This document shows, one piece after another, positions 5,483 to 45,307 of a stretch of DNA of 64,000 nucleotides. The notes beneath the pieces were generated by a model. The model was given only the letters and a program-made list of their open reading frames with translations. It did not search any database and was not told the DNA's origin. The translations under genes were made by a program, and so were the position numbers. The stretch is from a virus, in IMG/VR virus record IMGVR_UViG_3300008963_000001, positions 32,001-96,000 of that record, one strand, 5' to 3'. The number at the start of each line of letters is the position of its first letter. Within the stretch, counting starts at the first letter, position 1.

Positions 5483-5490
5483 GTATTTAT
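5483..5490 (-). promoter_or_regulatory. Late promoter-like motif upstream of 4829..5467
   Basis: ATAAATAC overlapping the stop codon of the giant gene. Confidence 0.5.
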
Positions 5491-17400: not shown

Positions 17401-19367
17401 TGTATATCACCTACATTGTCAATGTTTAGATAGCTGATTGAAAATCCTAACTCACTATCCACAGGCCCGTTTCCTTGAGCATAAGAAAAGATCGAGTTTC
17501 CTCTAAACGTAGACACAGGATAGACATTTGTGTTGCCCAGAATGTTACCTGCGTCATCGAAAAGATCAAACAGGGGTGCTTGGTTTACAGAATCTTTGCG
17601 TTGCGCACGCTGCCAATTCGCTCCATCAAAAAAGAACATAGAGTTACTGTATTGATCGCCTCGTCTAACAAGAACACAGTCGTCCTGTTGAGAGGTTGCG
17701 TCGACGTCTTCGGCCAAATGAATCTGCCTATTGCCATTAAAAGTAATAAACTCTACTCGATAAATTTTGTTGTTGGTTAGCGGATCGGTATCATTTACAA
17801 CAAGAAGTCTTGCTCCGTTAAACAATCTTTCACCGTCTACGCTGTACCCTGCGGATCCTTCTATGGTAGAAAGCACATCTGTTGTAAAGTCGTCAACAAA
17901 GTCCACCGTTTGTTTAGCGGTTATGCCGTGCTGGAAAAGTTTAAGGTTTGGTTTAAATTCAATAATTGGACGTTTTGCACGCAGTTCTTCCGGTGCGGCA
18001 AAATCTTGACCTCGTGTTCTATATGCTTGCTCCAGCACAGATCTATGGAACCATCTGTTGTAGCGGCTCCAGGGGTTTCGATCTCTACTGTCTCTGCGAA
18101 TTAAAACATAATCTTTTTGGCCAGGGAAATTATTGGCGTCGTCAAAAGGCTGTGTGTCGAATCCTGCATTATCAAAAAATACTTCTGGGCTTGTGCCTGA
18201 AATTTCGGGCGGAATCAAATCTTCAAAGTTAGTAAGCGTGATTCCATCGCCTACGCCCTCAATTAACCACGACCCTTTGCTGTATTTTTCTGGAACTGTT
18301 TGGCCAGTGAATTCAATTACAAGGCCGTTTGTAAACTCTATACCGTTAGAGCTGGTATAATTTACTTTTCCGATTATGTCCTTTTCAACATCTAAGAAAG
18401 TATTAGTGTCAGCATCGGCTATAATAAACTGTCCAAGTCTGTTTGGATCGTTAGCACTTTGATAATACAGCAGGTCTGGGGCGTCTAGCGGTACCTCGAA
18501 CGTTATTGTTCCTTGTTCTGCTCCGTTATTTTCAATGCCTTCATTGTACTCAAAACTGTTTCCTGTTGCATTGCTGTCAATCAACTCCCAATCCTGCGAG
18601 TCTACATCTATTGTGCTGTTGTCACTAGGAGTGTTTTCTGCTAGAGATTTAAACAATTGTCCATTTACTACAGCTAAATCGCCAGGAAAATAAGTTTTTG
18701 TGGGATCAAATTGTAGCGACCCCACATCATAATTGGTCTTTATTACAAAACCCTCGTTGGGAGAATTAACTTGGAATTTATAAGTTTGTCCACGATACAG
18801 TGTAATTGTAGGATTATTTGTAAGACCATCTGGTGTAAAGATCCAAGAAGATCCCACACCCTGAATTACTCTATATGTGCTTTGTATAGATTGTGTTTGG
18901 CCCGCAACGTCGAGCGACGGTGGCCCTAGAGGAGCCCAAAAATATTCTCTATAGTTTGTAAATTTGTCCCAATCTATAGGAGGATTCCAAGAATAATGAT
19001 CCTGATCCGAAATTAGGTCATCACGTTCGTTGTTGTTGTTAAAAAATTTAAGCTGGTTTTTTAAATCTAGATAATCATAAAAATCAGTGATTTCGTTTTT
19101 ATCGTTTTTTACATTTACACCGGGTTCAAGCTGGTATCTACTGCGTAGAGTCTCATCAGAATCTAAATAGACACTGTCCCCTCTAAATGTTTTTCCGTAG
19201 CGTTGGCCAAAATACCCTACAATACGTTCTAAACTGCCTGGTTGCGTAATAGGATCTACGACACCAGAAAAGAATTTGTTGTTACTGGCTGTTTGAAAAA
19301 CTTGTGGTAACAGCTCTTGTGTCTTTCTAATAGGGATTCCGCTGTTTGGGTACTTTTTACCAGCCAT
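5487..19367 (-). CDS. Giant multidomain baseplate wedge/fibre protein (4626 aa), positional gp7 equivalent
   Basis: Uninterrupted 13.9-kb ORF directly downstream of gp6. Contains a cupredoxin-like segment (TLYRGQTYKF...APDLLYYQ), FG-GAP-like blades, CBM-like W...Y..GD.V...G..Y repeats and GDG-S/T repeats. Confidence 0.75.
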   Translation of the reverse strand: MAGKKYPNSGIPIRKTQELLPQVFQTASNNKFFSGVVDPITQPGSLERIVGYFGQRYGKTFRGDSVYLDSDETLRSRYQLEPGVNVKNDKNEITDFYDYLDLKNQLKFFNNNNERDDLISDQDHYSWNPPIDWDKFTNYREYFWAPLGPPSLDVAGQTQSIQSTYRVIQGVGSSWIFTPDGLTNNPTITLYRGQTYKFQVNSPNEGFVIKTNYDVGSLQFDPTKTYFPGDLAVVNGQLFKSLAENTPSDNSTIDVDSQDWELIDSNATGNSFEYNEGIENNGAEQGTITFEVPLDAPDLLYYQSANDPNRLGQFIIADADTNTFLDVEKDIIGKVNYTSSNGIEFTNGLVIEFTGQTVPEKYSKGSWLIEGVGDGITLTNFEDLIPPEISGTSPEVFFDNAGFDTQPFDDANNFPGQKDYVLIRRDSRDRNPWSRYNRWFHRSVLEQAYRTRGQDFAAPEELRAKRPIIEFKPNLKLFQHGITAKQTVDFVDDFTTDVLSTIEGSAGYSVDGERLFNGARLLVVNDTDPLTNNKIYRVEFITFNGNRQIHLAEDVDATSQQDDCVLVRRGDQYSNSMFFFDGANWQRAQRKDSVNQAPLFDLFDDAGNILGNTNVYPVSTFRGNSIFSYAQGNGPVDSELGFSISYLNIDNVGDIQFEWHLDRGTVTYGENIETFEIPINTTFYLLDGNLGNGWRQTDSKYLQPIVDFANIEQQTNTVTFQTVDWDNLSNDPDHEIRFYVNGKQISSNYERQQNSFIFERQFDSDDIVTVKVIGDVDPDLGYYELPIGLQNNPFNAALTTLTLGQATDHLKSAFEFDARLTGQLPGNTNVRDLNNYIQNATRFVKHSGIAPLSVLMLCDKQSNLVRAIQFAERSYTNFKNRFVKKAVEIDFNDSIPDFLDEIITDLGKTMSPASPFSDSDMIGSGAYTTIDITVDDPGITTFTLDENFDLDSLSRRAVYAYINDQQLLHGQDYVFDTDFGFITILTPLSEGDRIQIREYVNTSANYIPPTPTALGSYKRFKPKKYVDTTFTQPREVIQGHDGSLTTTYGDFRDDLILELEKRIYNNIKVNYDKDFFDIDQVVGGYYYKGDFSKEDLDSILAAEFLRWVTDSNIDYSNNVYLDSENSFTYTYSNLTDYTNTENLPGWWRGVYLYIYDTDEPHVHPWEMLGFSEMPEWWEEEYGPAPYTSGNLILWEDISRGYIRQGERQGFDSRYARSTILGHIPVDDAGNLLSPLDSGFAKNFALVNNRGSFLVGDVAPAEAAWRRSSELPFAYVIAMCLLKPFKFITTNLDRQTTERNLLGQLVDTNTKTFFKPSDIEIPSIDGIQTAGLINYVKDYLSDLGVGRESLENKIQNIDTNLSVRMSGFVDKAQQKFLLDSKSPSSTNESIFIPPENYDIIFNVSSPVETLIYSGVIFEKQDNGWSVRGYNNINPFFEYYDALSNQQDPVITVGGISEEFVTWAANQRYNNGTIVERNGTYYRATQTHTSGETFDSSLYAQLPKLPVTGGTQAFKRRRFNKRSVSRLTYGTTLTTIQDVVDFLLGYGEYLSDQGFVFDEYDFENQTPQDWTTSAKEFLFWTKNNWEIGSLLTVSPGAQKLKVRKPVGVAENLLDGFYPYNLLKSDGRTIDPKFINVERSFQSFEIGVENINDGIFFLQLNYVLKEHVTVFTDRTVFNDVIYDKSTGYRQGRIKSQGFRTVDWDGDYTSPGFLFDNVNIRDWQPFVDYNLGDIVRYKSYNWVSLRNQTGKEFFDDSNWSKLDSQPEKQLVPNFDYRINSFEDYFEVTSSGISENQKLLARHNIGYQPRQYLQNIAEDPVTQFRLYQGFIQEKGTRNALDKVFDKLSDNADEDSLELNEEWAIRSGFLGGIDQTQEYEIELRKDKFESDPQLVLIDGNTDNAADFYYRINADNFTIGNDKFVTDVIPVTAATHASRTAGYVRTDQTEFVVRTRQDLPALNIEDIVDGDHIWITFDGRDWTVLRFLLTPELSVTGIVADTNTITVEFNRYHNFQPDEYVGFKNITNFNGIYQIQSIGPKTVTILKAPDADDPEPDDSTQASVYRLEEARFVDYESMPEDAVAHLREGSKLFVDSDQNNKWSVLEKQKLYQSKNVSEDAISQPGRLGSVVKYIANKKQILASDPATASIPVYLDNRKSLDLKQIVQPVPGLSSFVERSFGESIAVSPDEKWLAVGSPKAGDVPSNYKGAFDPRGNYSSRDIVLHDGLLWTPKEEIEGDGSTIDVYNDRWQFAKNIPATFTGRRSSLASQGMIDIYEYKNDQWEHEFSFVSPRPTDLELFGSQISISKNNDEYTMFVSAPGANNSTGAVYVYKYVGNDWIHATDYSFAGAYDPGTVLPINQIKTGQDLLIETLGDTDWNEINGSTGIFYSVGDRIIAKIDGDQAGFISNGTVRTNPFYPVGSIVWFDGNLYQAQQNVFPASEANIKYPVESNAWTIASAGHLGPMLQLDTTQTFFDSTLNFGATDTEVLPLISEGEQFGHRIKSNTDGSVLAVSAPFADDQYFENYKGVWRSDYEYKENDVVKYQGSYHQLVNDLETSDSSIFSYGQEPVGLPWKNIGDSTATPTGKVFVFKKNDLGKYVLDQTISTSTILADDSQFIEISSGDEFGFDLDVDAAGSLLVVSSPKADINLQNQGSVYIFRNTGNTFSLAQDISSFERYPNEFFGSSISISSDTSKIAVGAKNSPYAPPVRFDNNSTVFDERTTEFFEEPGYAGSVYLFELKGSKYFLAEKIQEDLQANEGFGSSVDAEGNNIVVGSPHYRLEDGGRGKFRTFNKLVNAESLRTIAQQQAKTNIDLVKSTELYDNINSVKIQDLDVVDSAKGKILNIAESQIDFKTSYDPAVYSFSLELDAVVDPQTAWADRNVGKIWWDVSTAKWLDYEQGELSYRLGNWNRQVTGSRIDIYEWVESRLLPSQWSLLADTTEGLNLGVSGQPLYPEDNVYSVKTLFDPDTQQPTQTLYYYWVRNKTIVGDELTKNLSAASIRDLIENPQSVGSAFIGLSGPNSFILYNFDNVVNESTSLVNFEFYTSLQKQNPVHSEWQLLSEGVATSVPNKKLENKWIDSLVGYNSAGLKVPAENLPTKQKYGILYRPRQSMFVDRFKALEIVTDRVNTVLRQEPFADTISFENLNLVDTTPSPLLNLYDTEVDVFEDLQSIGTSRLKQAVLKPNLADGELETVEILDPGFGYKIAPIVEIEGNGENAEVEVTIDNQGRVNGVTVTRRGRNYTEITLKARRFAVLVKSDSNANGFWGIYSWDDQRQVFFRSLSQAFDTARYWSFADFWKEGYSAERSIVKEIQSVAQEPTVEVEIGDLLRIQEYGSGGWAVFEKVSDSESDFLNKYTLVGRERGTIQFDRSIFDTSLAGIGYDSASAYDGGFYDNNNSQEIRNILKAVKNDIFIGTYAQEYNKLFFATMRYVLVEQAYVDWLFKTSFLKATHRVGNLKQKINYENDSLESYEDYVNEVKPYRSSIREFVSKYKNTDESRTSTTDFDLPAYYNSTQGRVVPTQSTDPIVQEYPWRWWLDNNGFGVVNIEVTDPGSNYVAQPRVLIEGDGTGAEAIAYIANGRVRGVKILNQGQGYTKAPQIKLVGGTSTGDTVARAVAIIGDSKVRSMDLTIKFDRLSALGNYQKFTNSETFVGTGSSAVYSLKYPPSNSNENISVSINNQLALDSDYSITLFKQNVNGYNALKGQITFVEPPAVGDSIEITYTINQEIFDAVDRIDSFYSPGTGMKGKDLDQLMTGVDYGGVKIQGTTFDVTGGWDALPWFTDSWDSVESESDFYVVVDGSTNSIDLPFIPAQGQEINVYLQRQQNIPEPTIDNLQYSSEFNMPTTVRIDDPNFASDGDSSLVTNKNAVMPTFVGDGTSRTVEIGSYVSLNDGDTLIFRPADSDGSVTINDINVLDTRLSGGTLSSIDNAYITANGSTPEEISIDGDGYNTPENTPATEENVPGQVLDSLSITVYQNSISGTTPALTRKIVGDGSTRFFDIGQTILETKSVIVYVDKQQKTFETDYDLNLNSYTLEFFDPPATGSTIEIFSIGLGGLRIIDFKEYVGDGETSLFLTSANFDLTSSIFVTVNGIQTDVEFIDSTELTDQPDKTLVQFGNAPEFNDSIKIVALGAYSNLTSSESDIVTINQESSQHDGSTRSFEITDYANLQEGAENSSVLVEVNNRVLRGVDTVVKIYDGTNNEIVIGTDPEESAGSILNANLTVFKNNEQLEFITDYVFNGTTKTVIINEEALVEGDVIKIENDFRTDFRINENNLIISESVDLQHSDTIQITWFRQYPSQEFISDEYSGGQVKFELNFEPVSASFLYVYLNGERLTLDSEYYLSPDKRSVYLNSQTTESDIIKIFAFGNDVFSLPSAYEIHKDMLNVDRFFRYSKNDIVLQQDLNYYDTEIVVSNAELLYEPDTEKNRPGMIEIDGEKIEYFNKTGNTLSQLRRGALGSPIGESYSAGSKIVSQGISDIIPYSESQERIDFVSDGSSNLIGPLPFIPQKTDIKNWFRNTIPNNYYQCNDVEVFVGGRRLVKTPRQMFNAELGAYSPESDETVEADFSVSGEDTFIRLTAVPEAGTRITVIKKTGSSWYDRGESTATTGESLIDNNSVIAKFIQEKNTELPE

Positions 19368-29205: not shown

Positions 29206-29253
29206 TTTTAAAATTATGTGCTACTATTATTATATAAGGAGAATATTAACAAC

Positions 29254-30102
29254 ATGACCAGAAGAGTAAAGTATCTAAACAATCGTGATCTACTAAAAGA
29301 AATACACAAAAGCAAAACTACTTATTGTAGTTACATCCAGCCTGAATATCATCAATTTGATATTATTGTTCCCAGTATCGACAAGATCAACATAAGAACA
29401 ACAGCAGAAGCCAAAAGAAATCAAGCCGCAAGAATTGCAAAAGCAAATTGGGAAGCTGCTTGCGAACAGGTTACCTCAGGCAAAAAACCTAGTCAAAAAG
29501 AATTCGAAATCGATTATAAAAAAATCAAAAAACAAGACGTAGTATTTCGTGTAATGACCTTTGAGCACATTCCGCTTGCGCCTGGACGCAAGAAAACAGT
29601 CAAGACCGTTGCAGACGCACACGAAAAAGTTAACTTTCCTCCCTTTCAGCACTGGAAGTTTGACGAAAACGATAACCTAATATGCGTGGGCAAAAGCCAC
29701 TGGAAAGGCGACGTTCACAATGGTGAATTTTCTAAAACACACGGACACACCACAGAAGAACTTGCAAAAATGTGGATGAAACTGTGTGAACGTTATGCTA
29801 CCAGAGGCAATGTGCGTGGCTATACCTATAACGATGAGATGCGCGGTCAAGCAATACTTCAGCTTACACAAATCGGTCTACAGTTTGACGAAAGCAAATC
29901 TGACAATCCGTTTGCATACTATACCGCAGCAGTTACCAACAGTTTTGTGAGAATCATTAATATTGAAAAACGAAATCAATCAATCAGAGACGACATATTG
30001 GAAATGAACGGCATGAATCCAAGCTGGACTAGACAAAACGAAGGAAGAGACAACGGCCTAGAACAGCCCCGCGCTATCTATCAGGGCAAAGAGGACAGTT
30101 GA
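29254..30102 (+). CDS. gp55: Late-transcription sigma factor, T4 gp55-like (about 282 aa)
   Basis: 'KYLNNRDLLKEIHKSK' and 'GYTYNDEMRGQAILQLTQIGLQFDESKSDNPFAYYTAAVTNSFVRIINIEKR' match gp55. AAGGAGA RBS supports ATG 29254 over 29218. Directly upstream of gp47-gp46, as in T4-like phages. Confidence 0.85.
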   Translation: MTRRVKYLNNRDLLKEIHKSKTTYCSYIQPEYHQFDIIVPSIDKINIRTTAEAKRNQAARIAKANWEAACEQVTSGKKPSQKEFEIDYKKIKKQDVVFRVMTFEHIPLAPGRKKTVKTVADAHEKVNFPPFQHWKFDENDNLICVGKSHWKGDVHNGEFSKTHGHTTEELAKMWMKLCERYATRGNVRGYTYNDEMRGQAILQLTQIGLQFDESKSDNPFAYYTAAVTNSFVRIINIEKRNQSIRDDILEMNGMNPSWTRQNEGRDNGLEQPRAIYQGKEDS

Positions 30103-30127
30103 CATATGATCGTTGATATTGTATTAT
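30099..30127 (+). promoter_or_regulatory. Host sigma70-type promoter for gp47-gp46
   Basis: TTGACA (30099-30104), 17-nt spacer, TATTAT (30122-30127). Confidence 0.75.
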
Positions 30128-30142
30128 ACATGTGGAGGATTT

Positions 30143-31153
30143 ATGTCACTGTTTAAAAAAGCCGCATGTTTTACCGACATACACTTTGGTATGAAAAACG
30201 GCAGTCGCATTCATAATTCAGATTGTGAAGAATTTGTCAAATGGTTTTGCGAACAGGCAAAACAGGAAGGTTGCGAGACCTGTATCTTTCTAGGCGATTG
30301 GCATCACAACAGAAGTAGTGTGGATGTCAGTACTATGAACTATTCTGTGTCGAATCTCGAAAGATTGAGTAAATCATTTACAGATGTGTATGTAATACTA
30401 GGCAACCACGACGAATATTACAAAGACAAGAGAGAAATACATTCGGTTGAATTTGCAAGACTGTTTCCCAACGTCCACCTAGTAAACGAAATTTTCACTG
30501 ACGGCGATGTAAGCATTGTACCGTGGCTGGTAGGCGATGAGTGGCAAGAAATCTCTAAAATCCAATCTCGTTATATTTTTGGTCATTTTGAACTGCCCAG
30601 CTTTTACATGAACGCAATGGTACAGATGCCTGATCACGGCAGCTTGCGAGCAAGCCACTTTCAGAATCAAGAATATGTGTTTACAGGTCACTTTCACAAG
30701 CGTCAGCAGAGAAACAATATTGTGTACATGGGCAATGCATTTCCTCACAACTATGCAGACGCCGGCGACGACGAACGCGGTATGATGATTTTAGAGTGGG
30801 GCAAGGAGCCTGTGTATCGTGCATGGCCCGATCAGCCCAAATATCGTGTGTACAAACTGAGCCAAATACTGGAAAAGCCAGATGAACTGCTGTTCCCAAA
30901 AATGCACTGCCGTGCAACTATTGATGTAGAATTGAGCTTTGAAGAAGCCAACTTTATCAAAGAACAGTTTATTCCGCAATATGATCTACGAGAGTTACAG
31001 ATGATTCCAGAGAAAGTTGAGGTGGATTCGCAGACCGCAGTAGTTGACATGAATTTTGAAAGCGTTGACACTATTGTTATGAATTCTCTCACAAGTCTTG
31101 ACACAGAAAGTTATGATCATAAACTGTTATTGGATCTATACAAAGACCTATGA
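30143..31153 (+). CDS. gp47: Recombination endonuclease, Mre11/SbcD-like
   Basis: Phosphoesterase motifs 'FTDIHFG', 'FLGDWHH', 'ILGNHD', 'FGHFE', 'FTGHFH'. GGAGG RBS before ATG 30143. Confidence 0.95.
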   Translation: MSLFKKAACFTDIHFGMKNGSRIHNSDCEEFVKWFCEQAKQEGCETCIFLGDWHHNRSSVDVSTMNYSVSNLERLSKSFTDVYVILGNHDEYYKDKREIHSVEFARLFPNVHLVNEIFTDGDVSIVPWLVGDEWQEISKIQSRYIFGHFELPSFYMNAMVQMPDHGSLRASHFQNQEYVFTGHFHKRQQRNNIVYMGNAFPHNYADAGDDERGMMILEWGKEPVYRAWPDQPKYRVYKLSQILEKPDELLFPKMHCRATIDVELSFEEANFIKEQFIPQYDLRELQMIPEKVEVDSQTAVVDMNFESVDTIVMNSLTSLDTESYDHKLLLDLYKDL

Positions 31154-32925
31154 TTAAAATAAAAAATCTAACCGTACAGAATTTCATGAGCGTTGGAAAT
31201 CAGACGCAGGCCATTGACTTTGATCGAGGACACCTTACATTGGTGTTAGGCGAAAATCTCGATCTCGGCGGAGACGATGGTGGCAATCGCAACGGCACTG
31301 GCAAAACAACTATAGTTAACAGTTTGAGCTATGCGCTGTATGGTCAGGCTCTTACAAATATTAAAAAAGATAATCTAGTAAACAAAATCAACAACAAGCA
31401 CATGCTTGTGACCTGTACTTTTGAAAAAGACGGTGTTGAATATCACATTGAACGCGGCCGTAGGCCTAATGTATTAAAACTAAAAATTAACGGGCACGAT
31501 CAAGTGCCAGAAGACAGCGACGAAAGCCAAGGCGACAGTCGAGAAACACAAAAAGCCATTGAAGATATCATAGGCATGAGTCACATGATGTTCAAACATC
31601 TTGTAGCTCTCAACACCTATACTGAACCGTTTCTTTCGATGCGAGCTAACGATCAGCGCGATATCATCGAGCAGTTGCTTGGCATAACCATGCTGTCTGA
31701 AAAAGCAGAAAAGCTGAAAGAAAACAATAAGTTTATCAAAGACGAAATCAAGACCGAAACTGCTAAAATAGACGCAATCAAAAGCAGCAACGATAAGATT
31801 CTAGAATCGATTCACGGCCTCGAAAGAAAACAAAAAATTTGGAACGACAACAAAACACGCGACCTTAACGATATCGAAGTGGCTATAGAAAAACTGGCTC
31901 ATATAGACATCGAACAAGAAATTGAAAATCAACGTTTGTTAACAGAATGGCGAGAGCGCAAGCGAGAACGAGAAAACATCGAAAGCATGCTGGCTAGACA
32001 AAATACTTCGGTTGAAAGGAGTCAGCGTCAACTGGAAAAATTAGAATCAGAACTTGTTCAATTAAAGCAGAAAACCTGCCATGCTTGCGGACAAGAGCTG
32101 CATGACGACACGCACCGAGAGCTTTTAGATCGAAAACAAGCGCAGATCGATGAGCTTGTACAGCAATTAAACACAGAAACAACGGAAGTTAAGGATTTAG
32201 AAACTGCGCTTGTTGAAATTGGAGATCTAGGAGCATGTCCTAGCGTTGATTATGATTCTTTAGAGGAAGCATTAAATCACAGAAGCACGCTCGAAAGCTT
32301 GCAAAAAGAGTTTATGCAGAAAGACAAAGAAACTAATCCGTACGACGATCAAATTAAAGAGCTACAGGACACTGCTTTACAGGAAATCAGTTGGGAAGCG
32401 GTAAACGAACTCACAAGAATCAAAGATCATCAAGAATTCCTATTAAAACTGTTGACTAACAAAGACAGTTTCTTGCGTAAAAAGATTATTGATCAAAATC
32501 TTGCGTTCTTAAATCAACGATTGACTTACTATCTCAGCAGAGTGGGTTTACCGCACGTAGTAGAATTCCAAAATGATCTCAGCGTAATCATAACACAGCT
32601 AGGTCAGGATTTGGATTTCGACAACCTCAGCAGAGGAGAGCGCAATCGTTTGATTCTCAGTCTCAGCTGGGCATTCCGAGATGTATGGGAAAACCTCTAT
32701 CACGGTATAAATCTGCTGTTTATTGACGAGTTAGTCGACAGCGGCATGGATGCGAGCGGTGTTGAGAATTCAATAGGTGTTCTCAAGAAGATGTCTAGAG
32801 AAAGAGAGAAAAATGTATTCTTAATCAGTCATCGTGACGATCTTGTCAGCAGAGTGAACCAGGTGTTGAAAGTCATAAAAGAAAACGGATTTACATCGTA
32901 TTCAACGGATGTAGATATTGTATAA
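31150..32925 (+). CDS. gp46: Recombination ATPase, Rad50/SbcC-like (591 aa)
   Basis: Walker A 'NGTGKTT', zinc hook 'CHAC', signature 'LSRGE', Walker B 'LLFIDE', H-loop 'ISH', and a coiled coil. Confidence 0.95.
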   Translation: MIKIKNLTVQNFMSVGNQTQAIDFDRGHLTLVLGENLDLGGDDGGNRNGTGKTTIVNSLSYALYGQALTNIKKDNLVNKINNKHMLVTCTFEKDGVEYHIERGRRPNVLKLKINGHDQVPEDSDESQGDSRETQKAIEDIIGMSHMMFKHLVALNTYTEPFLSMRANDQRDIIEQLLGITMLSEKAEKLKENNKFIKDEIKTETAKIDAIKSSNDKILESIHGLERKQKIWNDNKTRDLNDIEVAIEKLAHIDIEQEIENQRLLTEWRERKRERENIESMLARQNTSVERSQRQLEKLESELVQLKQKTCHACGQELHDDTHRELLDRKQAQIDELVQQLNTETTEVKDLETALVEIGDLGACPSVDYDSLEEALNHRSTLESLQKEFMQKDKETNPYDDQIKELQDTALQEISWEAVNELTRIKDHQEFLLKLLTNKDSFLRKKIIDQNLAFLNQRLTYYLSRVGLPHVVEFQNDLSVIITQLGQDLDFDNLSRGERNRLILSLSWAFRDVWENLYHGINLLFIDELVDSGMDASGVENSIGVLKKMSREREKNVFLISHRDDLVSRVNQVLKVIKENGFTSYSTDVDIV

Positions 32926-33195
32926 ATGAGCACAGAAAGCCACGACAAAATGATCGAAGCATTCCAGCAATACTTCAAGTGGCAAACTAATTTTGAATAT
33001 AAAGGCTCTGACGAAGCAGGTATCAAGGCACGTTATTGGCTATCACAGATACGCAACTGTGCGTCCGAACGCAGAAAAGAAATACAGGCAAAGCGAGAAC
33101 AACGAAAGGCAGCCAGAAAAGGCATGATAGGAAGGCCGAAACAAGTAAGTAAGTCTGATGACAAAGTGGACATATCGGGGAAAGGAAATCAATGA
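32926..33195 (+). CDS. Small basic protein, histone H1-like Hc1 family-like (89 aa)
   Basis: 'KGSDEAGIKARYWLSQIRNCASERRKEIQ' resembles the Hc1-like 'KGNKAAGTRARKAL..I...R..I' pattern. K/R-rich tail. Confidence 0.6.
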   Translation: MSTESHDKMIEAFQQYFKWQTNFEYKGSDEAGIKARYWLSQIRNCASERRKEIQAKREQRKAARKGMIGRPKQVSKSDDKVDISGKGNQ

Positions 33196-33613
33196 GCTTC
33201 CAAACGAGTGCGAAGGCTTTGTCTATCTTATCACTAATCTTACCAACAATAAAAAATACATAGGCAAAAAACTAGCACGTTTTAAAACTTCAAAACCACC
33301 TCTCAAAGGCAAAAAAAATCGCAGGCGCGGATATAAAGAAAGTGACTGGAGAGACTATTGGGGATCTTCAGATCATCTTTTAGCAGATGTAGAAACACTA
33401 GGCCCCGAAAAATTTACTAGAGAAATTTTACATTTTTGTCCCAGCAGAGGCGTCTTATCATATCTAGAGGCTAAAGAACAGTTTGACAGGCGAGTATTAG
33501 AAACCGACGAGTATTACAACGGTATAATCAATGTTCGCGTAGGCAGTTCAAGGCAACTTTCAGAAACACTACAACAAATATATGGAAATCGTCCACCGCA
33601 GTTGGACGATTAA
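33158..33613 (+). CDS. Small GIY-YIG endonuclease (151 aa)
   Basis: 'GFVYLITNLTNNKKYIGKK', then 'YWGSS', 'FTREIL', 'YLEAKEQ' and 'YYN', the GIY-YIG catalytic pattern. Confidence 0.85.
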   Translation: MTKWTYRGKEINELPNECEGFVYLITNLTNNKKYIGKKLARFKTSKPPLKGKKNRRRGYKESDWRDYWGSSDHLLADVETLGPEKFTREILHFCPSRGVLSYLEAKEQFDRRVLETDEYYNGIINVRVGSSRQLSETLQQIYGNRPPQLDD

Positions 33614-34085
33614 CACCGTCAATTAAGCCCCCACCGGCGCTGTTATGGTGGACTTAGACCTGGCCAGCTACGTGAGCACAGGGAATTGAATTTCCGTTTG
33701 GCGGCGGAGACTCGCATCACTACCCGAAAGGATGATGATTGGATATGCCTAATTAACCAATTTGATGCGTTTATAGAAGAATTCATTCGAGGCTAAGGAC
33801 GAGATAATCAAATCTCAGGTTTTGTATGCAAGACAGCATTTGTGTACAAGGCTGCCGTTGGACATAAGAAACTCTATCGGAACGAGCAGGTACCGGCCAA
33901 CCGCCTGTGAGGTGTGCTATAAAGAAAGTGCATTACAGTTGTATGCATTGTTTATAAAACATCATAGTTCCAATGCTGTGGTGACTGTGCTACTCAGATA
34001 ATGCGCAGAACAGTGAGCCCCGCAACGGGCTCTATGTGACCGCTTAATCTAGATAATACTTAAACTGCTTCGCAGTTAGAATATT
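33614..34085 (+). ncRNA. Candidate large structured ncRNA of about 470-520 nt (ROOL/GOLLD-like class); family, strand and ends unverified
   Basis: No ORF of 60 aa or more, in an otherwise densely coding genome. Many hairpins: 33624-33656, 33715-33737 (GAAA loop), 33801-33816, 33822-33849, 33887-33907, 34015-34032 and aactgc-ttc-gcagtt near 34063-34077. Confidence 0.65.
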
Positions 34086-34122
34086 GTTTCATTAAAAAAG
34101 CATTGAGCGCAAGCGAAAATGC

Positions 34123-34142
34123 AAACGATCTTTAGATCGTTT
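34123..34142. terminator. Perfect inverted repeat between convergent units; probable (bidirectional) terminator
   Basis: AAACGATC-TTTA-GATCGTTT, an 8-bp stem abutting the tandem stop codons of the minus-strand gp51-like ORF. Confidence 0.5.
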
Positions 34143-34143
34143 A

Positions 34144-34317
34144 TTAAAAGAAAGGCATCTGTGTTTTCTTTGTTGTTTCCAAATTGTCTTTGATTATCTC
34201 TGAAACAATTTGTCTTTCTTCGTAGCTCATATTCATGCCCTCGCTATAGGATAGTCCTCTCATATACCAACACATTTTAAGAACTTCCTTTTTGATGTTC
34301 CGAACATCTTTATCCAT
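34144..34317 (-). CDS. gp51-like/GT-type tail chaperone C-terminal ORF (57 aa from ATG; frame open from 34377 as a -1 extension of gp26)
   Basis: Manual translation: MDKDVRNIKKEVLKMCWYMRGLSYSEGMNMSYEERQIVSEIIKDNLETTKKTQMPFF. The 'SYSEGMNMSYEER' segment resembles the gp51/GT helical motif. Below the ORF-track size cutoff. Confidence 0.75.
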   Translation of the reverse strand: MDKDVRNIKKEVLKMCWYMRGLSYSEGMNMSYEERQIVSEIIKDNLETTKKTQMPFF

Positions 34318-34355
34318 ATTTTTAGCGATCTCTTGGATCTCTGATTCCGGAAGTC

Positions 34356-35213
34356 TCAGGATCCTGGCGCGAAAAAAGTCGTTTGATCCATTGTTACAGG
34401 CATGTCATAGTTGTGCTCACAGGAATTACAGGTTACAGGAATAACTTTAGCGCCACCGTTGCCTTTCATGTTTGTGATGTGATCTGAAATAGTTTGAAAC
34501 ACTTCTTTGTCTGCGTTGTTTACGAACTCTTGTATCATGTCTGGATCACTGACAGAACCTTGAGGCGTTTGTATTTCTCGAATACAACCTGCTATAACAT
34601 CTACGGTCATTGCGGTAAGTTTTACAAAGCTCTCGCCGAACATTTCTATTTTTTGCTCGTCTGAAATGGTATCGTCGTTGATCACACTGAAAATTCTCTG
34701 CTGCTCGAACGTTTTGAGATTGGTTTTTGTTATTTCGCTGTAGGAGTATGGCTTTATGTGGATAGTAAGTTCGTCCAGTTGTATTACTGATTGATACTGG
34801 AACTGAGCAGTTTCCGCCAGCCAATTTGTGAGATTGATAGCAAATTCGTTGTCTGCTTCGCATGAAGGACAAGTACTGCTTACTTCCATGTCTTCGCCGT
34901 AGGTTGCGATTCTTATGGCTATAAGAGCGGCATCTACGTCGATTGACGGCATCTGCCACGGGTCTTTTATAGCTGGGATGCAGCTTTTGATTACTTCTAC
35001 AGTGCTTTGTCCGCTGAGTAGTGCGTCGGGTGTCTTAAACATCAATTCGTCTTTTGCAGTCATTGCAAAAACTGCATATTTCCCGTCCTGAGACAGATCC
35101 AATGTGCCTTCTGGATAGAATTCTCCTCGGCTGGGTAGATCAATATAGATCTTAGGCTGTCTATAATACTGTGCTAGCGGGTTGGGGTTTGTCAGTCCTT
35201 CAAATTCGGCCAT
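34356..35213 (-). CDS. gp26: Baseplate hub assembly/tail chaperone, T4 gp26-like (about 285 aa)
   Basis: 'QPKIYIDLPSRGEFY...AMTAKDELMFK...IDVDAALIAIRIATYGE...CPSC...CNSC' is the gp26 pattern. GGAGA RBS supports ATG 35213. Confidence 0.85.
   Translation of the reverse strand: MAEFEGLTNPNPLAQYYRQPKIYIDLPSRGEFYPEGTLDLSQDGKYAVFAMTAKDELMFKTPDALLSGQSTVEVIKSCIPAIKDPWQMPSIDVDAALIAIRIATYGEDMEVSSTCPSCEADNEFAINLTNWLAETAQFQYQSVIQLDELTIHIKPYSYSEITKTNLKTFEQQRIFSVINDDTISDEQKIEMFGESFVKLTAMTVDVIAGCIREIQTPQGSVSDPDMIQEFVNNADKEVFQTISDHITNMKGNGGAKVIPVTCNSCEHNYDMPVTMDQTTFFAPGS
34371..34377 (-). other. Putative programmed -1 frameshift heptamer T TTT TTC
   Basis: Minus strand reads ACG ACT TTT TTC GCG CCA GGA TCC TGA. 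The -1 frame is open for 77 sense codons through the gp51-like ORF. Confidence 0.7.
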
Positions 35214-35224
35214 TGTTATCTCCA

Positions 35225-35231
35225 ATAAATA
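35225..35231 (+). promoter_or_regulatory. Late promoter for the tape measure/portal unit
   Basis: ATAAATA in the divergent intergenic region. Confidence 0.55.
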
Positions 35232-37936: not shown

Positions 37937-39646
37937 ATGAGTTGGAAAAAATATTTTAGTCCTGTATCAGCGGACAATTCGGGTTCTTACAGCCCTGTAG
38001 GAAACGGAGGCGGTGCTGGTCCTGCAAGATCAAACTATTCGTCATATCTTCCTGATGTATACGCAGGCTCTCCCAACAGAACAGAGCGTTATACACAGTA
38101 TGAAACAATGGACATGGATTCTGAAGTCAATGCCGCGTTGGACATACTGGCAGAATTCTGCACAGACAAAGACAACGAAAACGGAACGCCATTCAAATTT
38201 AAATTCAAAGGCAGTCCAACTCCGACAGAAACACGCATGTTGAATGACGCACTGGTTAAATGGAGCAAGTATCAGGAATTTGAAACTCGCATTTTTAGAA
38301 TGGTGAGAAACACTTTTAAATATGGCGATTGCTTTTTTATTAGAGATCCAGAAACACTCAAACTGCTATATGTTGAACCTGCCAAAGTTTCAAAAATCAT
38401 CGTAAACGAAAGCACTGGTAAAATACCAGAGCAATATGTTATTCAAGACCTTAACTTCAATTTTAAAGAAAATGTTGCAGTTACTCCTTTTGGAACACAA
38501 AACAATGCACCGCACGGCACCAGTTCTTATGTAAGTGGCGGTGCATTTGGCCGAGGTTATGTTGGTGATGTAAATCAACCGCCTGGCACGCGCTTTCAGA
38601 CCAATCAAAACGAAGTCACTGTCGATGCCAAACACATGGTACATTTGAGTCTTTCAGAAGGCATCGATTCTAACTATCCGTTTGGCAACAGTCTGCTAGA
38701 AAGCGTTTTTAAGGTATACAAACAAAAAGAACTTTTAGAAGACGCTATTATTATCTACAGAATTCAGCGTGCACCAGAGCGACGCATTTTTTATGTTGAT
38801 GTTGGAAACATGCCTGCACACATGGCCATGCAGTTTGTTGAACGTGTTAAAAATGAAATTCAGCAGAGACGTATTCCCAGTGCCAGCGGCGGCGGACAAA
38901 GTGTTATTGATGCAAGTTACAACCCGCTTTCCACAAACGAAGACTACTTCTTTCCTCAAACAGCAGAGGGCCGTGGATCAAAAGTTGAAACACTGCCTGG
39001 CGGCACAAACCTTGGTGAAATAACAGATCTAAGATATTTTACAAACAAACTGTTCCGTGCCCTGCGTATACCCTCTAGTTATTTGCCAACAACGATCGAC
39101 GAACAACCCAATACAGTTGCAGATGGCAAAGTAGGCACGGCATATATTCAAGAACTGCGCTTTAACAAATACTGTGAACGTCTACAGAGCACTATTGTAG
39201 AGGTATTTGATCAAGAATTCAAGTATTGGTTACATCACAATGGATATAACATAGACAGCAGTCTATTTGAAATTGACTTTAATCCGCCGCAAAACTTTGC
39301 CGCATATAGACAAGCAGAATTAGACGCAACACGTGCAAATCTATATGGCCAGATAGCAGACATTCCGTTTTTAAGCAAGCGTTTTGCTATGAAACGCTAC
39401 CTTGGTCTAACAGAAGAAGAGATTGCAGAGAATGAGAGACTGTGGCGCGAAGAAAACACAGGCAGTCTCAAAAACGAACTAGATTCTGAAGCGCAAATGC
39501 GCAGTGCTGGAGTAACTCCTGCTGGAATCGAAGCAGATCTTGCTGGAGAAACAGAAGAAGCACCTGCCGATATCGAAGGTGGCGACGAGGGCGGTGAAGC
39601 AGAAAGTCCGCTAGGTGGCGAAGAAGGCGGAGCAGCAGAAGGATAA
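37937..39646 (+). CDS. gp20: Portal vertex protein (569 aa)
   Basis: 'LLEDAIIIYRIQRAPERRIFYVDVGNMP', 'EDYFFPQTAEGRGSKVETLPGG' and 'YFTNKLFRALRIPSS' are gp20 signatures. Confidence 0.97.
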   Translation: MSWKKYFSPVSADNSGSYSPVGNGGGAGPARSNYSSYLPDVYAGSPNRTERYTQYETMDMDSEVNAALDILAEFCTDKDNENGTPFKFKFKGSPTPTETRMLNDALVKWSKYQEFETRIFRMVRNTFKYGDCFFIRDPETLKLLYVEPAKVSKIIVNESTGKIPEQYVIQDLNFNFKENVAVTPFGTQNNAPHGTSSYVSGGAFGRGYVGDVNQPPGTRFQTNQNEVTVDAKHMVHLSLSEGIDSNYPFGNSLLESVFKVYKQKELLEDAIIIYRIQRAPERRIFYVDVGNMPAHMAMQFVERVKNEIQQRRIPSASGGGQSVIDASYNPLSTNEDYFFPQTAEGRGSKVETLPGGTNLGEITDLRYFTNKLFRALRIPSSYLPTTIDEQPNTVADGKVGTAYIQELRFNKYCERLQSTIVEVFDQEFKYWLHHNGYNIDSSLFEIDFNPPQNFAAYRQAELDATRANLYGQIADIPFLSKRFAMKRYLGLTEEEIAENERLWREENTGSLKNELDSEAQMRSAGVTPAGIEADLAGETEEAPADIEGGDEGGEAESPLGGEEGGAAEG

Positions 39647-44774: not shown

Positions 44775-44863
44775 AAATTGTCTACAAGTGTGCCGCCTAC
44801 CAGTGGTGGACTTATGCGGATACCCACCGCGTAGACCTAGAACGTCACAACAAGGAGAAACAA

Positions 44864-45307
44864 ATGGGACGCCCGATACAAAAAAGAAAAATTGGCGCAG
44901 GTGAAGCCAAAATACAAGTAACATCAGCTTATTTTACAGGTGATGGATCTGCCACCACAGGTGGTACTGCTACTCCTCTTTATATTGAGAGACAAAGAAG
45001 CTCGCGGAGATTTAAAGTAACACAGGTAGGAACTGGCAAGACCGAAGTTCTACTTATGACGCCAAAAGCAACTCCAGCAGAAGGCGAATTCAGCATTCAA
45101 ATTACACTAGATAGTGTTGCAGATACAAATCTAGATGATTCGTCACTTTACTATGCATATCGTTTACACAATAGAACCGTTAGTTGTTGCCCTGACGATG
45201 ATGAGTCAAATATGATCCACCTTCCATATACATTACAAGACGGCGAAAATGATCAGGAACTGTTAGCTGACGGATTTATTTTAGCAAACATTGACACGCA
45301 GGCCTAA
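44864..45307 (+). CDS. Hypothetical virion protein (147 aa)
   Basis: AAGGAGA RBS. First gene of the fibre operon. Confidence 0.7.
   Translation: MGRPIQKRKIGAGEAKIQVTSAYFTGDGSATTGGTATPLYIERQRSSRRFKVTQVGTGKTEVLLMTPKATPAEGEFSIQITLDSVADTNLDDSSLYYAYRLHNRTVSCCPDDDESNMIHLPYTLQDGENDQELLADGFILANIDTQA

What the first reader, a model, noticed from the sequence alone, without database searches (positions are those of the whole stretch)
33614..34085. About 500 nt of ORF-free, hairpin-dense DNA: candidate large ornate phage ncRNA
Seen: this is by far the largest non-coding gap in a window where genes abut or overlap, and it is tiled with stems. Examples are TAAG..CCACC/GGTGG..CTTA (33624-33656), CATCA..CC-GAAA-GG..TGATG (33715-33737), GAGAT/ATCTC (33801-33816), TTGTAT/GTACAA enclosing TGC/GCA (33822-33849), CAGG..CGG-CCAA-CCG..CCTG (33887-33907), GTGCAT/ATGCAT near 33928-33948 and GAGCCC/GGGCTC (34015-34032). 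Known: phages carry 500-800 nt structured RNAs of unknown function (ROOL, GOLLD). The segment AGGACGA...GCAAGACAGCATTTGTGTACAA...TGCCGT reminds me of ROOL, but that is an unverified recollection. Inference: this is a conserved functional RNA, either a divergent ROOL/GOLLD member or a new class, sited here by recombination genes rather than tRNAs.
Basis: partly seen in the sequence, partly recalled or inferred. Interest (0 to 1): 0.85.

Follow-up and report, generated by a model that had tools for sequence, protein, structure and literature searches.

The report
Large pseudoknotted phage RNA beside nuclease
The gap is a real, roughly 530-nt, heavily pseudoknotted non-coding RNA of an uncultured aquatic jumbo phage; its first third is the known Rfam motif Polynucleobacter-1, it always sits just downstream of a small GIY-YIG nuclease gene, and its function is unknown.

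Summary
Window 33614-34143 (+) is a conserved structured RNA gene. It is not ROOL or GOLLD, and it is not an entirely new class. Bases 33626-33772 match Rfam RF01718 (Polynucleobacter-1) end to end at 107.8 bits (cut-off 37). Weinberg's 2010 raw alignment already covered the central hairpins. I found no earlier description of the rest.

- The RNA has three covariation-supported pseudoknots.
- It has a 3' core with two hairpin loops that carry the same 7-nt word. That word changes from phage to phage but is identical in both loops in 63 of 63 RNAs.
- It ends in a tail hairpin and a terminator-like hairpin.

On 34 relatives, 95.3% of cells pair and 46 of 71 pairs show compensatory change. No shuffle out of 500 reached these values. 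The 3' core is found more widely than the Rfam-detectable 5' domain. All 70 RNA loci that could be evaluated have the same GIY-YIG gene (PHROG 447, homolog of PSSM2_218) directly upstream. Loci with the canonical core also carry a small helical basic protein.

The carriers are uncultured phages whose portal resembles that of the jumbo phage PA5oct. blastn found no match in 50,697 isolate genomes. Expression could not be tested.

My best guess, at low confidence, is that this RNA is the RNA subunit or regulator of a nuclease RNP. Other first-stage readers of this scan noted the same stretch.

The parts
32926..33195 (+). Small (89 aa) helical-hairpin protein with a disordered basic tail (GRPK, AT-hook-like). 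First gene of the conserved module.
   Evidence: Homologs lie directly upstream of the GIY-YIG gene in 48 of the 58 loci where an upstream ORF could be called. It is present in 34/34 GIY loci with the canonical RNA core and in 0/21 loci without it. AF2 model pLDDT 81: two helices (4-26, 29-66) and a disordered tail. No Pfam or PHROG family matches; there is only a weak Atlas lead to Hc1.
33158..33613 (+). Stand-alone GIY-YIG nuclease domain protein (151 aa), PHROG 447, often mis-named 'NAD synthetase'. Homolog of P-SSM2 PSSM2_218.
   Evidence: Pfam PF19835 SegE_GIY-YIG, E = 1.5e-33. PHROG 447. The FVY...YIG, R, E and N columns are invariant in 23 relatives. The best (weak) fold match is the I-TevI catalytic domain. 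PSSM2_218 confirmed as the homolog.
33614..34143 (+). The whole structured RNA (~530 nt).
   Evidence: About 77% nt identity across the whole gap in syntenic relatives. nhmmer finds 127 loci, 96 of them unique. Covariation. The many G-U pairs fix the strand as +.
33626..33772 (+). 5' domain: the Rfam RF01718 Polynucleobacter-1 match (helices P1-P6).
   Evidence: 107.8 bits against a gathering score of 37, model positions 1-141 of 141, E = 3e-24.
33616..33622 (+). PK1 5' strand (CCGTCAA), 2 nt after the stop codon. Pairs with the loop of hairpin P3.
   Evidence: 7 pairs, 94.5% of cells paired, 5 pairs with compensatory change (CG<->UA). Not part of the Rfam model.
33698..33704 (+). PK1 3' strand (TTGGCGG), the loop of P3 (33693-96 / 33705-08).
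33801..33816 (+). Hairpin P8. In this window it contains a third AGATAAT word.
   Evidence: 3 core pairs, 100% paired, all with compensatory change. Already present in Weinberg's 'tail' alignment.
33819..33852 (+). Long hairpin P9. Its loop (33834-39, CAGCAT) is the 5' strand of PK2.
   Evidence: 12 pairs, all with compensatory change.
33857..33861 (+). PKa 5' strand (GTTGG).
   Evidence: Pairs with CCAAC at 33897-901. 5 pairs, 100% paired, 3 with compensatory change (GTCAG/CTGAC, GTTGT/ACAAC, GTCAT/ATGAC).
33887..33907 (+). P12 (CAGG...CCTG), which encloses the PKa 3' strand CCAAC (33897-33901).
33880..33883 (+). P11 5' strand (GAAC). Pairs with GTTC at 33967-70 across the variable insertion.
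   Evidence: 4 pairs, 100% paired, all 4 with compensatory change.
33908..33966 (+). Variable-length AU-rich insertion hairpin.
   Evidence: Absent or 15-130 nt long in relatives.
33967..33978 (+). P11 3' strand (GTTC, 33967-70) and PK2 3' strand (ATGCTG, 33973-78).
   Evidence: PK2: 6 pairs, 100% paired, 3 with compensatory change (CAGCAT/ATGCTG <-> TAGCGT/ACGCTA).
33986..34007 (+). Box 1 hairpin. Loop word CTC-AGATAAT at 33993-34002.
   Evidence: Closing pair C-G in 50/53.
34015..34032 (+). P13 hairpin, mostly with a GNRA loop in relatives.
   Evidence: 47 distinct stem-loops among 70 RNAs, all complementary. Counts.
34046..34057 (+). Box 2. Loop word TCT-AGATAAT, the twin of Box 1.
   Evidence: Identical to Box 1 at every variable position in 53/53 and 63/63 RNAs, with 6-7 changes per position on the GIY tree.
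34063..34077 (+). P14 hairpin (AACTGC-TTC-GCAGTT).
   Evidence: 100% paired. One pair shows all four Watson-Crick types (CG 41, UA 6, GC 5, AU 1).
34100..34122 (+). Tail hairpin with the conserved loop GAGCG-NN-AGCGAA.
   Evidence: Conserved. The MAFFT alignment is too poor here for pair counts.
34123..34142 (+). Terminal hairpin. Terminator-like, and shared with the convergent minus-strand ORF in this window.
   Evidence: 6 pairs, 5 with compensatory change. The terminator scan scores it on the minus strand.

Best explanation
Identity (near certain): window 33614-34143 (+) encodes a ~530-nt non-coding RNA, which is the full-length form of the Rfam candidate Polynucleobacter-1. It has three parts. 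The 5' domain (the Rfam model) is locked by an extra pseudoknot to a leader that starts 2 nt after the GIY-YIG stop codon. The central domain has two further pseudoknots. The 3' core presents two hairpin loops with the same 7-nt word on either side of a GNRA hairpin, followed by a small hairpin, a tail hairpin and a terminator-like hairpin.

How it is made (inferred): in this phage it is probably transcribed with the upstream operon (gp47, gp46, small protein, GIY-YIG), because no promoter precedes it. A divergent subfamily has its own sigma-70-like promoter.

Mechanism (inferred, low confidence): the RNA works together with the products of the two genes it always follows, the domain-only GIY-YIG nuclease and, in the canonical form, the small helical basic protein. 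In this reading it is the scaffold or specificity-and-control subunit of a nuclease RNP, and the twin loops engage a partner that has two equal sites: a protein dimer or a repeated nucleic-acid site.
For: Shown:
- RF01718 matches at 107.8 bits over the full model.
- The whole gap is conserved in relatives.
- Curated structure on 34 sequences: 95.3% of cells paired against 79.6% in shuffles; 46 of 71 pairs with compensatory change; covariation score 0.485 against 0.188 (0 of 500 shuffles reach it); slid controls 0.07-0.11. The three pseudoknots are 94-100% paired.
- P13 and P14 covary across 53-70 RNAs.
- No conserved ORF.
- The GIY-YIG gene lies directly upstream on the same strand in all 70 loci that could be evaluated, at 47-100% identity.
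- The small protein is present in 34/34 loci with the canonical core and in 0/21 without it.
- The GIY-YIG catalytic columns are intact and the protein has no DNA-binding domain.
- The twin loops are identical in 63/63 RNAs across at least 15 changes of the word on the GIY tree.
- The same gene link was reported in 2010.

Inferred: co-transcription (no promoter found; the leader abuts the stop codon) and the RNP role.
Against: - There are no expression data and no protein-RNA binding data.
- Close GIY-YIG homologs exist without the RNA: Melnitz at 78% identity, P-SSM2, and the L061-type relatives. The nuclease therefore does not need this RNA as an obligate cofactor.
- The divergent L068-type RNA lacks the small protein.
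- The gene-RNA associations are not phylogenetically independent.
- No fixed-length variable 'guide' segment is visible.
- The partner of the twin loops was not found.
Confidence: 0.4

Rival explanations
1. This is an autonomous ornate RNA with its own, unknown function, possibly a self-assembling homo-oligomer like ROOL, GOLLD or OLE. The GIY-YIG gene is then a free-standing homing endonuclease that settled next to, and perhaps targets, this conserved RNA gene, as T4 SegB does in the tRNA cluster.
For: Size, pseudoknot density and GNRA loops resemble the ornate RNAs that cryo-EM shows to be RNA-only oligomers (PMC12286853, found). The Box 2 core AUCUAGAU is an 8-nt palindrome in the commonest class, and AUCUGGAU is self-complementary with G-U pairs. 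Pfam files the protein under a Seg-type homing endonuclease domain. The gene downstream of the RNA differs between phages. The SegB analogy rests on my own knowledge.
Against: No RNA locus lacks the GIY-YIG gene (70/70), which is unlike the patchy spread of selfish endonucleases. The protein is strongly conserved (47-100% identity) and diverges in step with the RNA. It lacks the DNA-binding domain that homing endonucleases carry. The palindrome is lost in the GC and AC box classes. Box 1 is never palindromic, yet it always copies Box 2.
Confidence: 0.25
2. This is a cis-acting 3' UTR element of the GIY-YIG mRNA. A compact knot begins at the stop codon and controls expression of a potentially toxic nuclease, for example by stabilising the mRNA against 3' exonucleases or by coupling folding to translation termination.
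For: The PK1 strand starts 0-9 nt after, or overlaps, the stop codon. No promoter lies upstream in the window. The link to the upstream gene is strict while the downstream gene varies.
Against: 530 nt with three pseudoknots and twin loops is far more than stabilisation needs. The L068-type relatives have a sigma-70-like promoter (TTGACA, 17 nt, TATATT) between the stop codon and the RNA, so there the RNA is its own transcription unit. The most conserved part is the distal 3' core, 350 nt from the ORF.
Confidence: 0.2
3. This is a ribozyme, for example one that cleaves itself out of the operon transcript or processes another RNA.
For: The pseudoknotted core contains invariant unpaired nucleotides (ACUC, GUGAC twice, AAUCU). 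Its position at the end of an mRNA would need a 5' processing step.
Against: No known ribozyme family matches at E <= 10. Catalytic residues would be invariant, but the loops' words vary. There are no data on cleavage.
Confidence: 0.07
4. This is not an RNA gene. It would instead be a decayed protein-coding region, such as a frameshifted zinc-finger domain, or a DNA-level element such as an origin or a set of promoters.
For: CxxC-like strings appear in three different frames. GATAAT resembles a -10 hexamer.
Against: Compensatory base-pair changes, including G-U pairs, occur on one strand only. No frame is conserved. The spacing of the GTGAC and GATAAT words (10-11 nt) does not fit a promoter (read from the sequence). 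Rfam matches a structure-based model at 108 bits.
Confidence: 0.02

Closest known systems
Polynucleobacter-1 RNA motif (Rfam RF01718; Weinberg et al. 2010, PMC2864571)
   Same: The 5' 147 nt match the whole model at 107.8 bits. The gene context is the same, downstream of a PSSM2_218-like GIY-YIG gene. The habitat is the same: freshwater, estuary and marine metagenomes. Weinberg's raw alignment also holds the central hairpins P8, P9 and P12, and its unaligned flanks show the same 3' core.
   Different: Rfam describes a 141-nt sRNA; the unit here is ~530 nt. PK1, PKa, P11, the twin-loop 3' core, P13, P14 and the tail are not in the model. The 2010 pseudoknot, marked '?' there, is replaced here by PK2, which covaries. 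In 2010 the motif was found in no purified phage. Here it lies on phage contigs that carry T4-type structural genes.
ROOL, GOLLD and OLE: large ornate bacterial and phage RNAs
   Same: A large (>400 nt), multi-domain, pseudoknotted RNA of unknown function, carried by phages and found in metagenomes.
   Different: No sequence or structure match. It is not next to tRNAs: ARAGORN finds none in the window. It is tied to a nuclease gene. Oligomerisation is untested.
omega RNAs of IscB/TnpB (HEARO and IS605-orfB motifs)
   Same: A large structured RNA encoded immediately beside, and at its 5' end touching, a small nuclease gene that lacks its own target-recognition domain.
   Different: The nuclease is GIY-YIG, not RuvC or HNH. 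There are no transposon ends and no fixed-length hypervariable guide. Only the two 7-nt loop words vary.
GIY-YIG homing endonucleases beside structured RNA genes (I-TevI in the td group I intron; SegB in the T4 tRNA cluster)
   Same: A phage GIY-YIG nuclease physically linked to a conserved structured RNA.
   Different: There is no intron and no interrupted gene, and no group I model matches. The protein has only the catalytic domain. The linkage is universal rather than sporadic.

Membership tests
Polynucleobacter-1 (RF01718) | Covariance-model score above the curated gathering score over the full model | tested here: met
   107.8 bits against 37, model positions 1-141 of 141, no non-canonical pair flagged.
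Polynucleobacter-1 (RF01718) | Lies downstream of a GOS11034 / PSSM2_218-like gene | tested here: met
   The upstream GIY-YIG protein hits P-SSM2 at 176735-177136, which is locus tag PSSM2_218.
Polynucleobacter-1 (RF01718) | The optional 'tail' (central hairpins) of the 2010 alignment | tested here: met
   P8, P9 and P12 are present and covary.
ROOL / GOLLD | Match to the Rfam models | tested here: not met
   No hit even at E <= 10 in 33400-34400.
ROOL / GOLLD | Frequent neighbourhood of tRNA genes | tested here: not met
   ARAGORN finds 0 tRNA or tmRNA genes in the 64-kb window.
Group I intron carrying a GIY-YIG homing endonuclease | Intron core (P3-P9) detectable, inserted in a host gene | tested here: not met
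   No Intron_gpI hit. The flanks are complete genes.
omega RNA / OMEGA nuclease | RuvC (TnpB/IscB) nuclease, transposon ends, guide segment | tested here: not met
   The nuclease is GIY-YIG. There is no HEARO or IS605-orfB hit. The variable regions differ in length by 10-60 nt.
Type III toxin-antitoxin | Tandem-repeat RNA antitoxin upstream of an endoribonuclease toxin | tested here: not met
   The RNA is downstream, has no tandem array (only the two 7-nt twin words), and the protein has a GIY-YIG fold.
tmRNA | tRNA-like domain plus tag reading frame | tested here: not met
   ARAGORN and Rfam find none.
GIY-YIG nuclease superfamily (the neighbouring protein) | GIY and YIG motifs, conserved Arg, Glu and Asn, and the alpha/beta fold | tested here: met
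   PF19835, E = 1.5e-33. Invariant columns. The model's best match is I-TevI, but weak (prob 0.84, E = 0.13).

The most novel reading that the evidence does not exclude
The module is an RNA-directed GIY-YIG nuclease. The two loops carry the same 7-nt word and would base-pair with two equal half-sites, such as an inverted repeat, in a foreign DNA or RNA. That would give target specificity to a nuclease that has only a catalytic domain, with the small AT-hook-like protein as the third subunit. The loop word would then be a programmable specificity determinant that phages change in both loops at once.
Probability: 0.08. Interest if true: 0.95.

Novelty: new member of a known kind. Interest (0 to 1): 0.6.

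Why it matters
Polynucleobacter-1 has sat in Rfam since 2010 as a 141-nt candidate 'sRNA' with no known carrier or function. This window shows that the natural unit is a ~530-nt RNA with at least three pseudoknots, carried by an uncultured clade of aquatic phages related to jumbo phages, and fixed in a two- or three-gene module with a minimal GIY-YIG nuclease.

That makes a concrete, testable system: three parts that can be expressed together. It also offers a sharp structural handle. The twin loops changed their word at least 15 times, always in both loops, which points to a bivalent partner. If the RNA proves to control or direct the nuclease, it would be a new kind of nuclease RNP. If it proves autonomous, it adds a phage-borne class to the few known ornate RNAs.

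Tried and rejected
- **Other Rfam families at E <= 10.** ROOL, GOLLD, HEARO, group I/II introns, RNase P, tmRNA and ribozymes were all in the library searched. Only two chance-level hits appeared (rliE, Plastid-rpoB).
- **ARAGORN.** No tRNA or tmRNA.
- **Pseudogene reading** (CxxC strings in three frames). Rejected because no frame is conserved.
- **RNAalifold pairs 471-474/661-664 and helix P10 (281-283/301-303).** Rejected in favour of PK2 and PKa, which are 100% paired and covary.
- **All-96-sequence MAFFT alignment.** Too noisy for helix detection.
- **An intramolecular partner for the twin loops.** A duplex scan, flank duplex energies (S1:S2 -3.5 against -2.5 kcal/mol shuffled; S1:S3 -3.2 against -2.9) and a covariation scan gave no consistent partner.
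- **Pairing of Box 1 with the tail GAGCG.** Contradicted by A-C mismatches in L004 and the L194 type (read).
- **Loop-word complement as inverted repeats in the phage's own record.** None found. The count of the word in the window is uninformative.
- **blastn against 50,697 phage isolates with three divergent RNAs.** No match.
- **Melnitz**, the closest isolate by GIY-YIG. No RNA.
- **Genome contigs pattern scan.** 4 hits, of which only a 1.7-kb contig binned as Flavobacteriales is real.
- **Public RNA runs.** No RNA holder was listed.
- **Complex prediction** for small protein plus nuclease.
- **Fold search of the small protein.** Only generic helical hairpins.
- **PDB sequence search of the nuclease.** No hit.
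- **Covariance models of my own.** None built, because the model length limit would have split the pseudoknots.

Full report
**What is there.** The window comes from a 128.7-kb IMG/VR virus record. It carries T4-type genes:
- a late sigma factor at 29218-30102;
- gp47/gp46-like recombination nuclease subunits at 30113-32925;
- a T4-type baseplate protein at 34356-35225 on the minus strand;
- a gp20 portal at 37937-39646.

The portal is about 50% identical to those of the jumbo phages PA5oct (287 kb) and Phosso (469 kb). CheckV rates the record 36% complete. The carrier is therefore probably a large to jumbo myovirus. Between the stop of a 151-aa GIY-YIG gene (33613) and a convergent small ORF (34144-34317) lie 530 nt with no conserved reading frame.

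**Check of the observation.** The segment folds better than any of 100 dinucleotide shuffles (z = -2.89). One lies in a variable insertion. One (CATCA/TGATG), together with several sub-details, is not the conserved pairing.

**Identity.** Rfam places 33626-33772 in RF01718, Polynucleobacter-1, at 107.8 bits (gathering score 37) over the whole 141-position model. Nothing else matches in 33400-34400 at E <= 10, including ROOL, GOLLD, HEARO, introns, RNase P and ribozymes. The 2010 paper that defined the motif reports three things:
- it lies downstream of genes like PSSM2_218 of cyanophage P-SSM2;
- its '3' half is not always detected';
- it was found in no purified phage.

I confirmed that PSSM2_218 is the homolog of the GIY-YIG gene here. 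The paper's Stockholm file shows that the authors had already aligned a 'tail' (my P8, P9 and P12) with a questionable pseudoknot. It also shows that the unaligned 3' flanks of their sequences, including Polynucleobacter NC_009379.1, contain the same 3' core that I describe. The Rfam model is only their 5' 'search motif'.

**Conservation.** Seven IMG/VR contigs with RF01718 hits align to the window at about 77% identity across the entire gap. An HMM of that alignment finds 127 loci, 96 of them unique, among the loci fetched by a 16-nt pattern and by the GIY-YIG protein. Many GIY-YIG loci lack an RF01718 hit (only 2 of 50 have one) but still carry the 3' core: 34 of 80 by nhmmer. Eleven such loci have no RF01718 hit at the gathering score. 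Six loci found through the 3' hairpin do have the 5' domain at 85-118 bits. More divergent forms exist. L081 is one. L068, L097 and L113 form another, with a TTGACA-17-TATATT promoter right after the stop codon.

**Structure.** I used a 34-sequence alignment (A2), RNAalifold and an exhaustive helix scan. These gave a model of 14 helices and 71 pairs, including three pseudoknots:
- PK1 joins the leader 33616-22 to the loop of Rfam hairpin P3 (33698-704).
- PKa joins 33857-61 to 33897-901.
- PK2 joins the loop of P9 (33834-39) to 33973-78.

P11 (33880-83 / 33967-70) bridges a variable insertion. Counted on A2, 95.3% of cells pair (79.6% in shuffles). 46 pairs have changes on both sides. The covariation score is 0.485 against 0.188, reached by 0 of 500 shuffles. 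Slid controls give 0.07-0.11. G-U pairs are frequent, so the RNA is read from the + strand. In the wider set, P13 appears as 47 different but always complementary stem-loops, mostly closed by GNRA loops. One pair of P14 shows all four Watson-Crick combinations. The caveat is that A2 is a sequence-based alignment of related phages, so the shuffle control overstates significance. The slid control and the number of distinct pair types are the safer measures.

**The twin loops.** The 3' core contains two units of the form GUGAC, then 7-11 nt, then a loop, on either side of P13. Box 1 (xA-CUC-NNAUNAN, 33992-34002) is the loop of a hairpin. Box 2 (xA-UCU-NNAUNAN, 34046-57) is its twin. The 7-nt word differs between phages:
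- AGAUAAU, GGAUAAU, GCAUAAU, AGAUGAU, GGAUGAU, ACAUGAU and ACAUGAA in the main family;
- AGCGAAA in the 2010 Polynucleobacter-type sequences;
- GUCAAG, GUGAAG and GCCAAG in the L068 type.

Within each RNA it is the same in both boxes: 53/53 at three variable columns and 63/63 on a GIY-YIG tree, where each column changes 6-7 times and the word changes at least 15 times. The 2010 flanks and L068-type sequences show the same pattern by eye. The copies are direct repeats, so they cannot pair with each other. I found no complement inside the RNA. This calls for a partner with two equal sites, or one site bound alternately. It remains unexplained.

**Context.** In all 70 RNA loci that are not cut by a contig end, a GIY-YIG gene (47-100% identical to the window's) ends just upstream on the same strand. 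The downstream gene varies. In 48 of 58 loci a homolog of the 89-aa ORF 32926-33195 was called directly upstream of the nuclease gene. Among 80 GIY-YIG loci, it is present in 34 of 34 with the canonical core and in none of the 21 without the core that have enough flank. The L068 type, however, has a divergent RNA and lacks it. The small protein is predicted to be a two-helix hairpin with a disordered basic GRPK tail and has no informative structural or family match. The nuclease keeps the GIY, YIG, Arg, Glu and Asn columns, carries a very basic loop, and has no DNA-binding domain. Homologs of the nuclease occur without the RNA in Melnitz (78% identity) and in P-SSM2.

**Distribution.** blastn with three divergent family members found nothing in 50,697 phage isolate records. 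A strict pattern scan of 185,579 species genomes gave one true hit, on a 1.7-kb contig of a Flavobacteriales MAG, which is probably phage DNA.

**How it most likely works.** Shown: it is a conserved, pseudoknotted RNA fixed downstream of the nuclease gene. Inferred: it is co-transcribed with the operon in this phage (no promoter; the leader abuts the stop codon) and is independently transcribed in the L068 type. My preferred reading, with a probability of about 0.4 including its vaguer forms, is an RNP in which the RNA scaffolds, regulates or directs the GIY-YIG nuclease and the small protein.

The rivals are:
- an autonomous ornate RNA beside which a homing-type nuclease settled (0.25);
- a cis-acting 3' UTR device (0.2);
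- a ribozyme (0.07);
- not an RNA at all (0.02).

The strict one-way dependence argues that the RNA needs the gene, or its transcript or product, rather than the reverse: no RNA occurs without the nuclease gene, while the nuclease gene occurs without the RNA.

**Limits.** No RNA run was listed for this sequence. No covariance model of the full RNA could be built within the size limit. The pairing of the core flanks (S1, S2, S3) differs between subfamilies and is unresolved.

**Verdict.** The element is real and conserved. It is a full-length member of a known but barely characterised family, and its published description is incomplete. It is not ROOL or GOLLD. I score interest at 0.6: a specialist would want the twin-loop and nuclease-module observations followed up, but the family itself is not new.

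Noticed in passing
window 44793-44866 (+): Second Rfam hit in the window: freshwater-2 RNA (RF02980, cis-regulatory candidate), 51.3 bits against a cut-off of 49.9. It ends at the start of ORF 44864-45307, in the head-gene region.
   Followed up: no
L068:3405-3995, L097:3415-4060, L113:3405-3960: A divergent subfamily of the RNA has a sigma-70-like promoter (TTGACA, 17 nt, TATATT/TAGTAT) directly after the GIY-YIG stop. Its twin mini-hairpins have loop words GUCAAG, GUGAAG or GCCAAG, again equal in both. It has no UUCG-type hairpin and no small helical protein upstream.
   Followed up: partly
L061:3425-4120, L070:3425-3930: GIY-YIG relatives at 79% identity have a 480-680-nt gap with different content: an antisense small ORF and a GC-rich conserved stretch (GTGGTACGTTAAGGTCTAACCCACC...). 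This may be another RNA.
   Followed up: no
A2 columns 5-16; window 33600-33615: The word AGGCAAAA just upstream of PK1 is conserved as nucleotides whether it is read as codons (KKAK-stop) or contains the stop itself (TAG). The RNA's 5' edge therefore seems to overlap the end of the nuclease ORF in many relatives.
   Followed up: no
relatives, 10-40 nt after the terminal hairpin (A2 columns 715-745): Most relatives have a T4 late-promoter-like TATAAATA followed by a same-strand gene. In the window the next gene is convergent instead.
   Followed up: no
L256 (JBBALS010000479.1, 1746 bp): A 1.7-kb contig binned into a Flavobacteriales MAG carries the RNA (nhmmer E = 1e-36). It is probably mis-binned phage DNA.
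   Followed up: partly
window 5487-19367 (-) and 37937-39646 (+): There is a 4626-aa ORF, and the portal is 50% identical to those of the jumbo phages PA5oct and Phosso. The RNA-bearing clade appears to be uncultured aquatic jumbo phages; CheckV sizes imply about 350 kb.
   Followed up: partly
PMC2864571 supplement, NC_009379.1:2130672-2131206: The Polynucleobacter chromosome copy has the full architecture, with twin boxes AGCGAAAG. Whether it sits in a prophage next to the two proteins was not checked.
   Followed up: no
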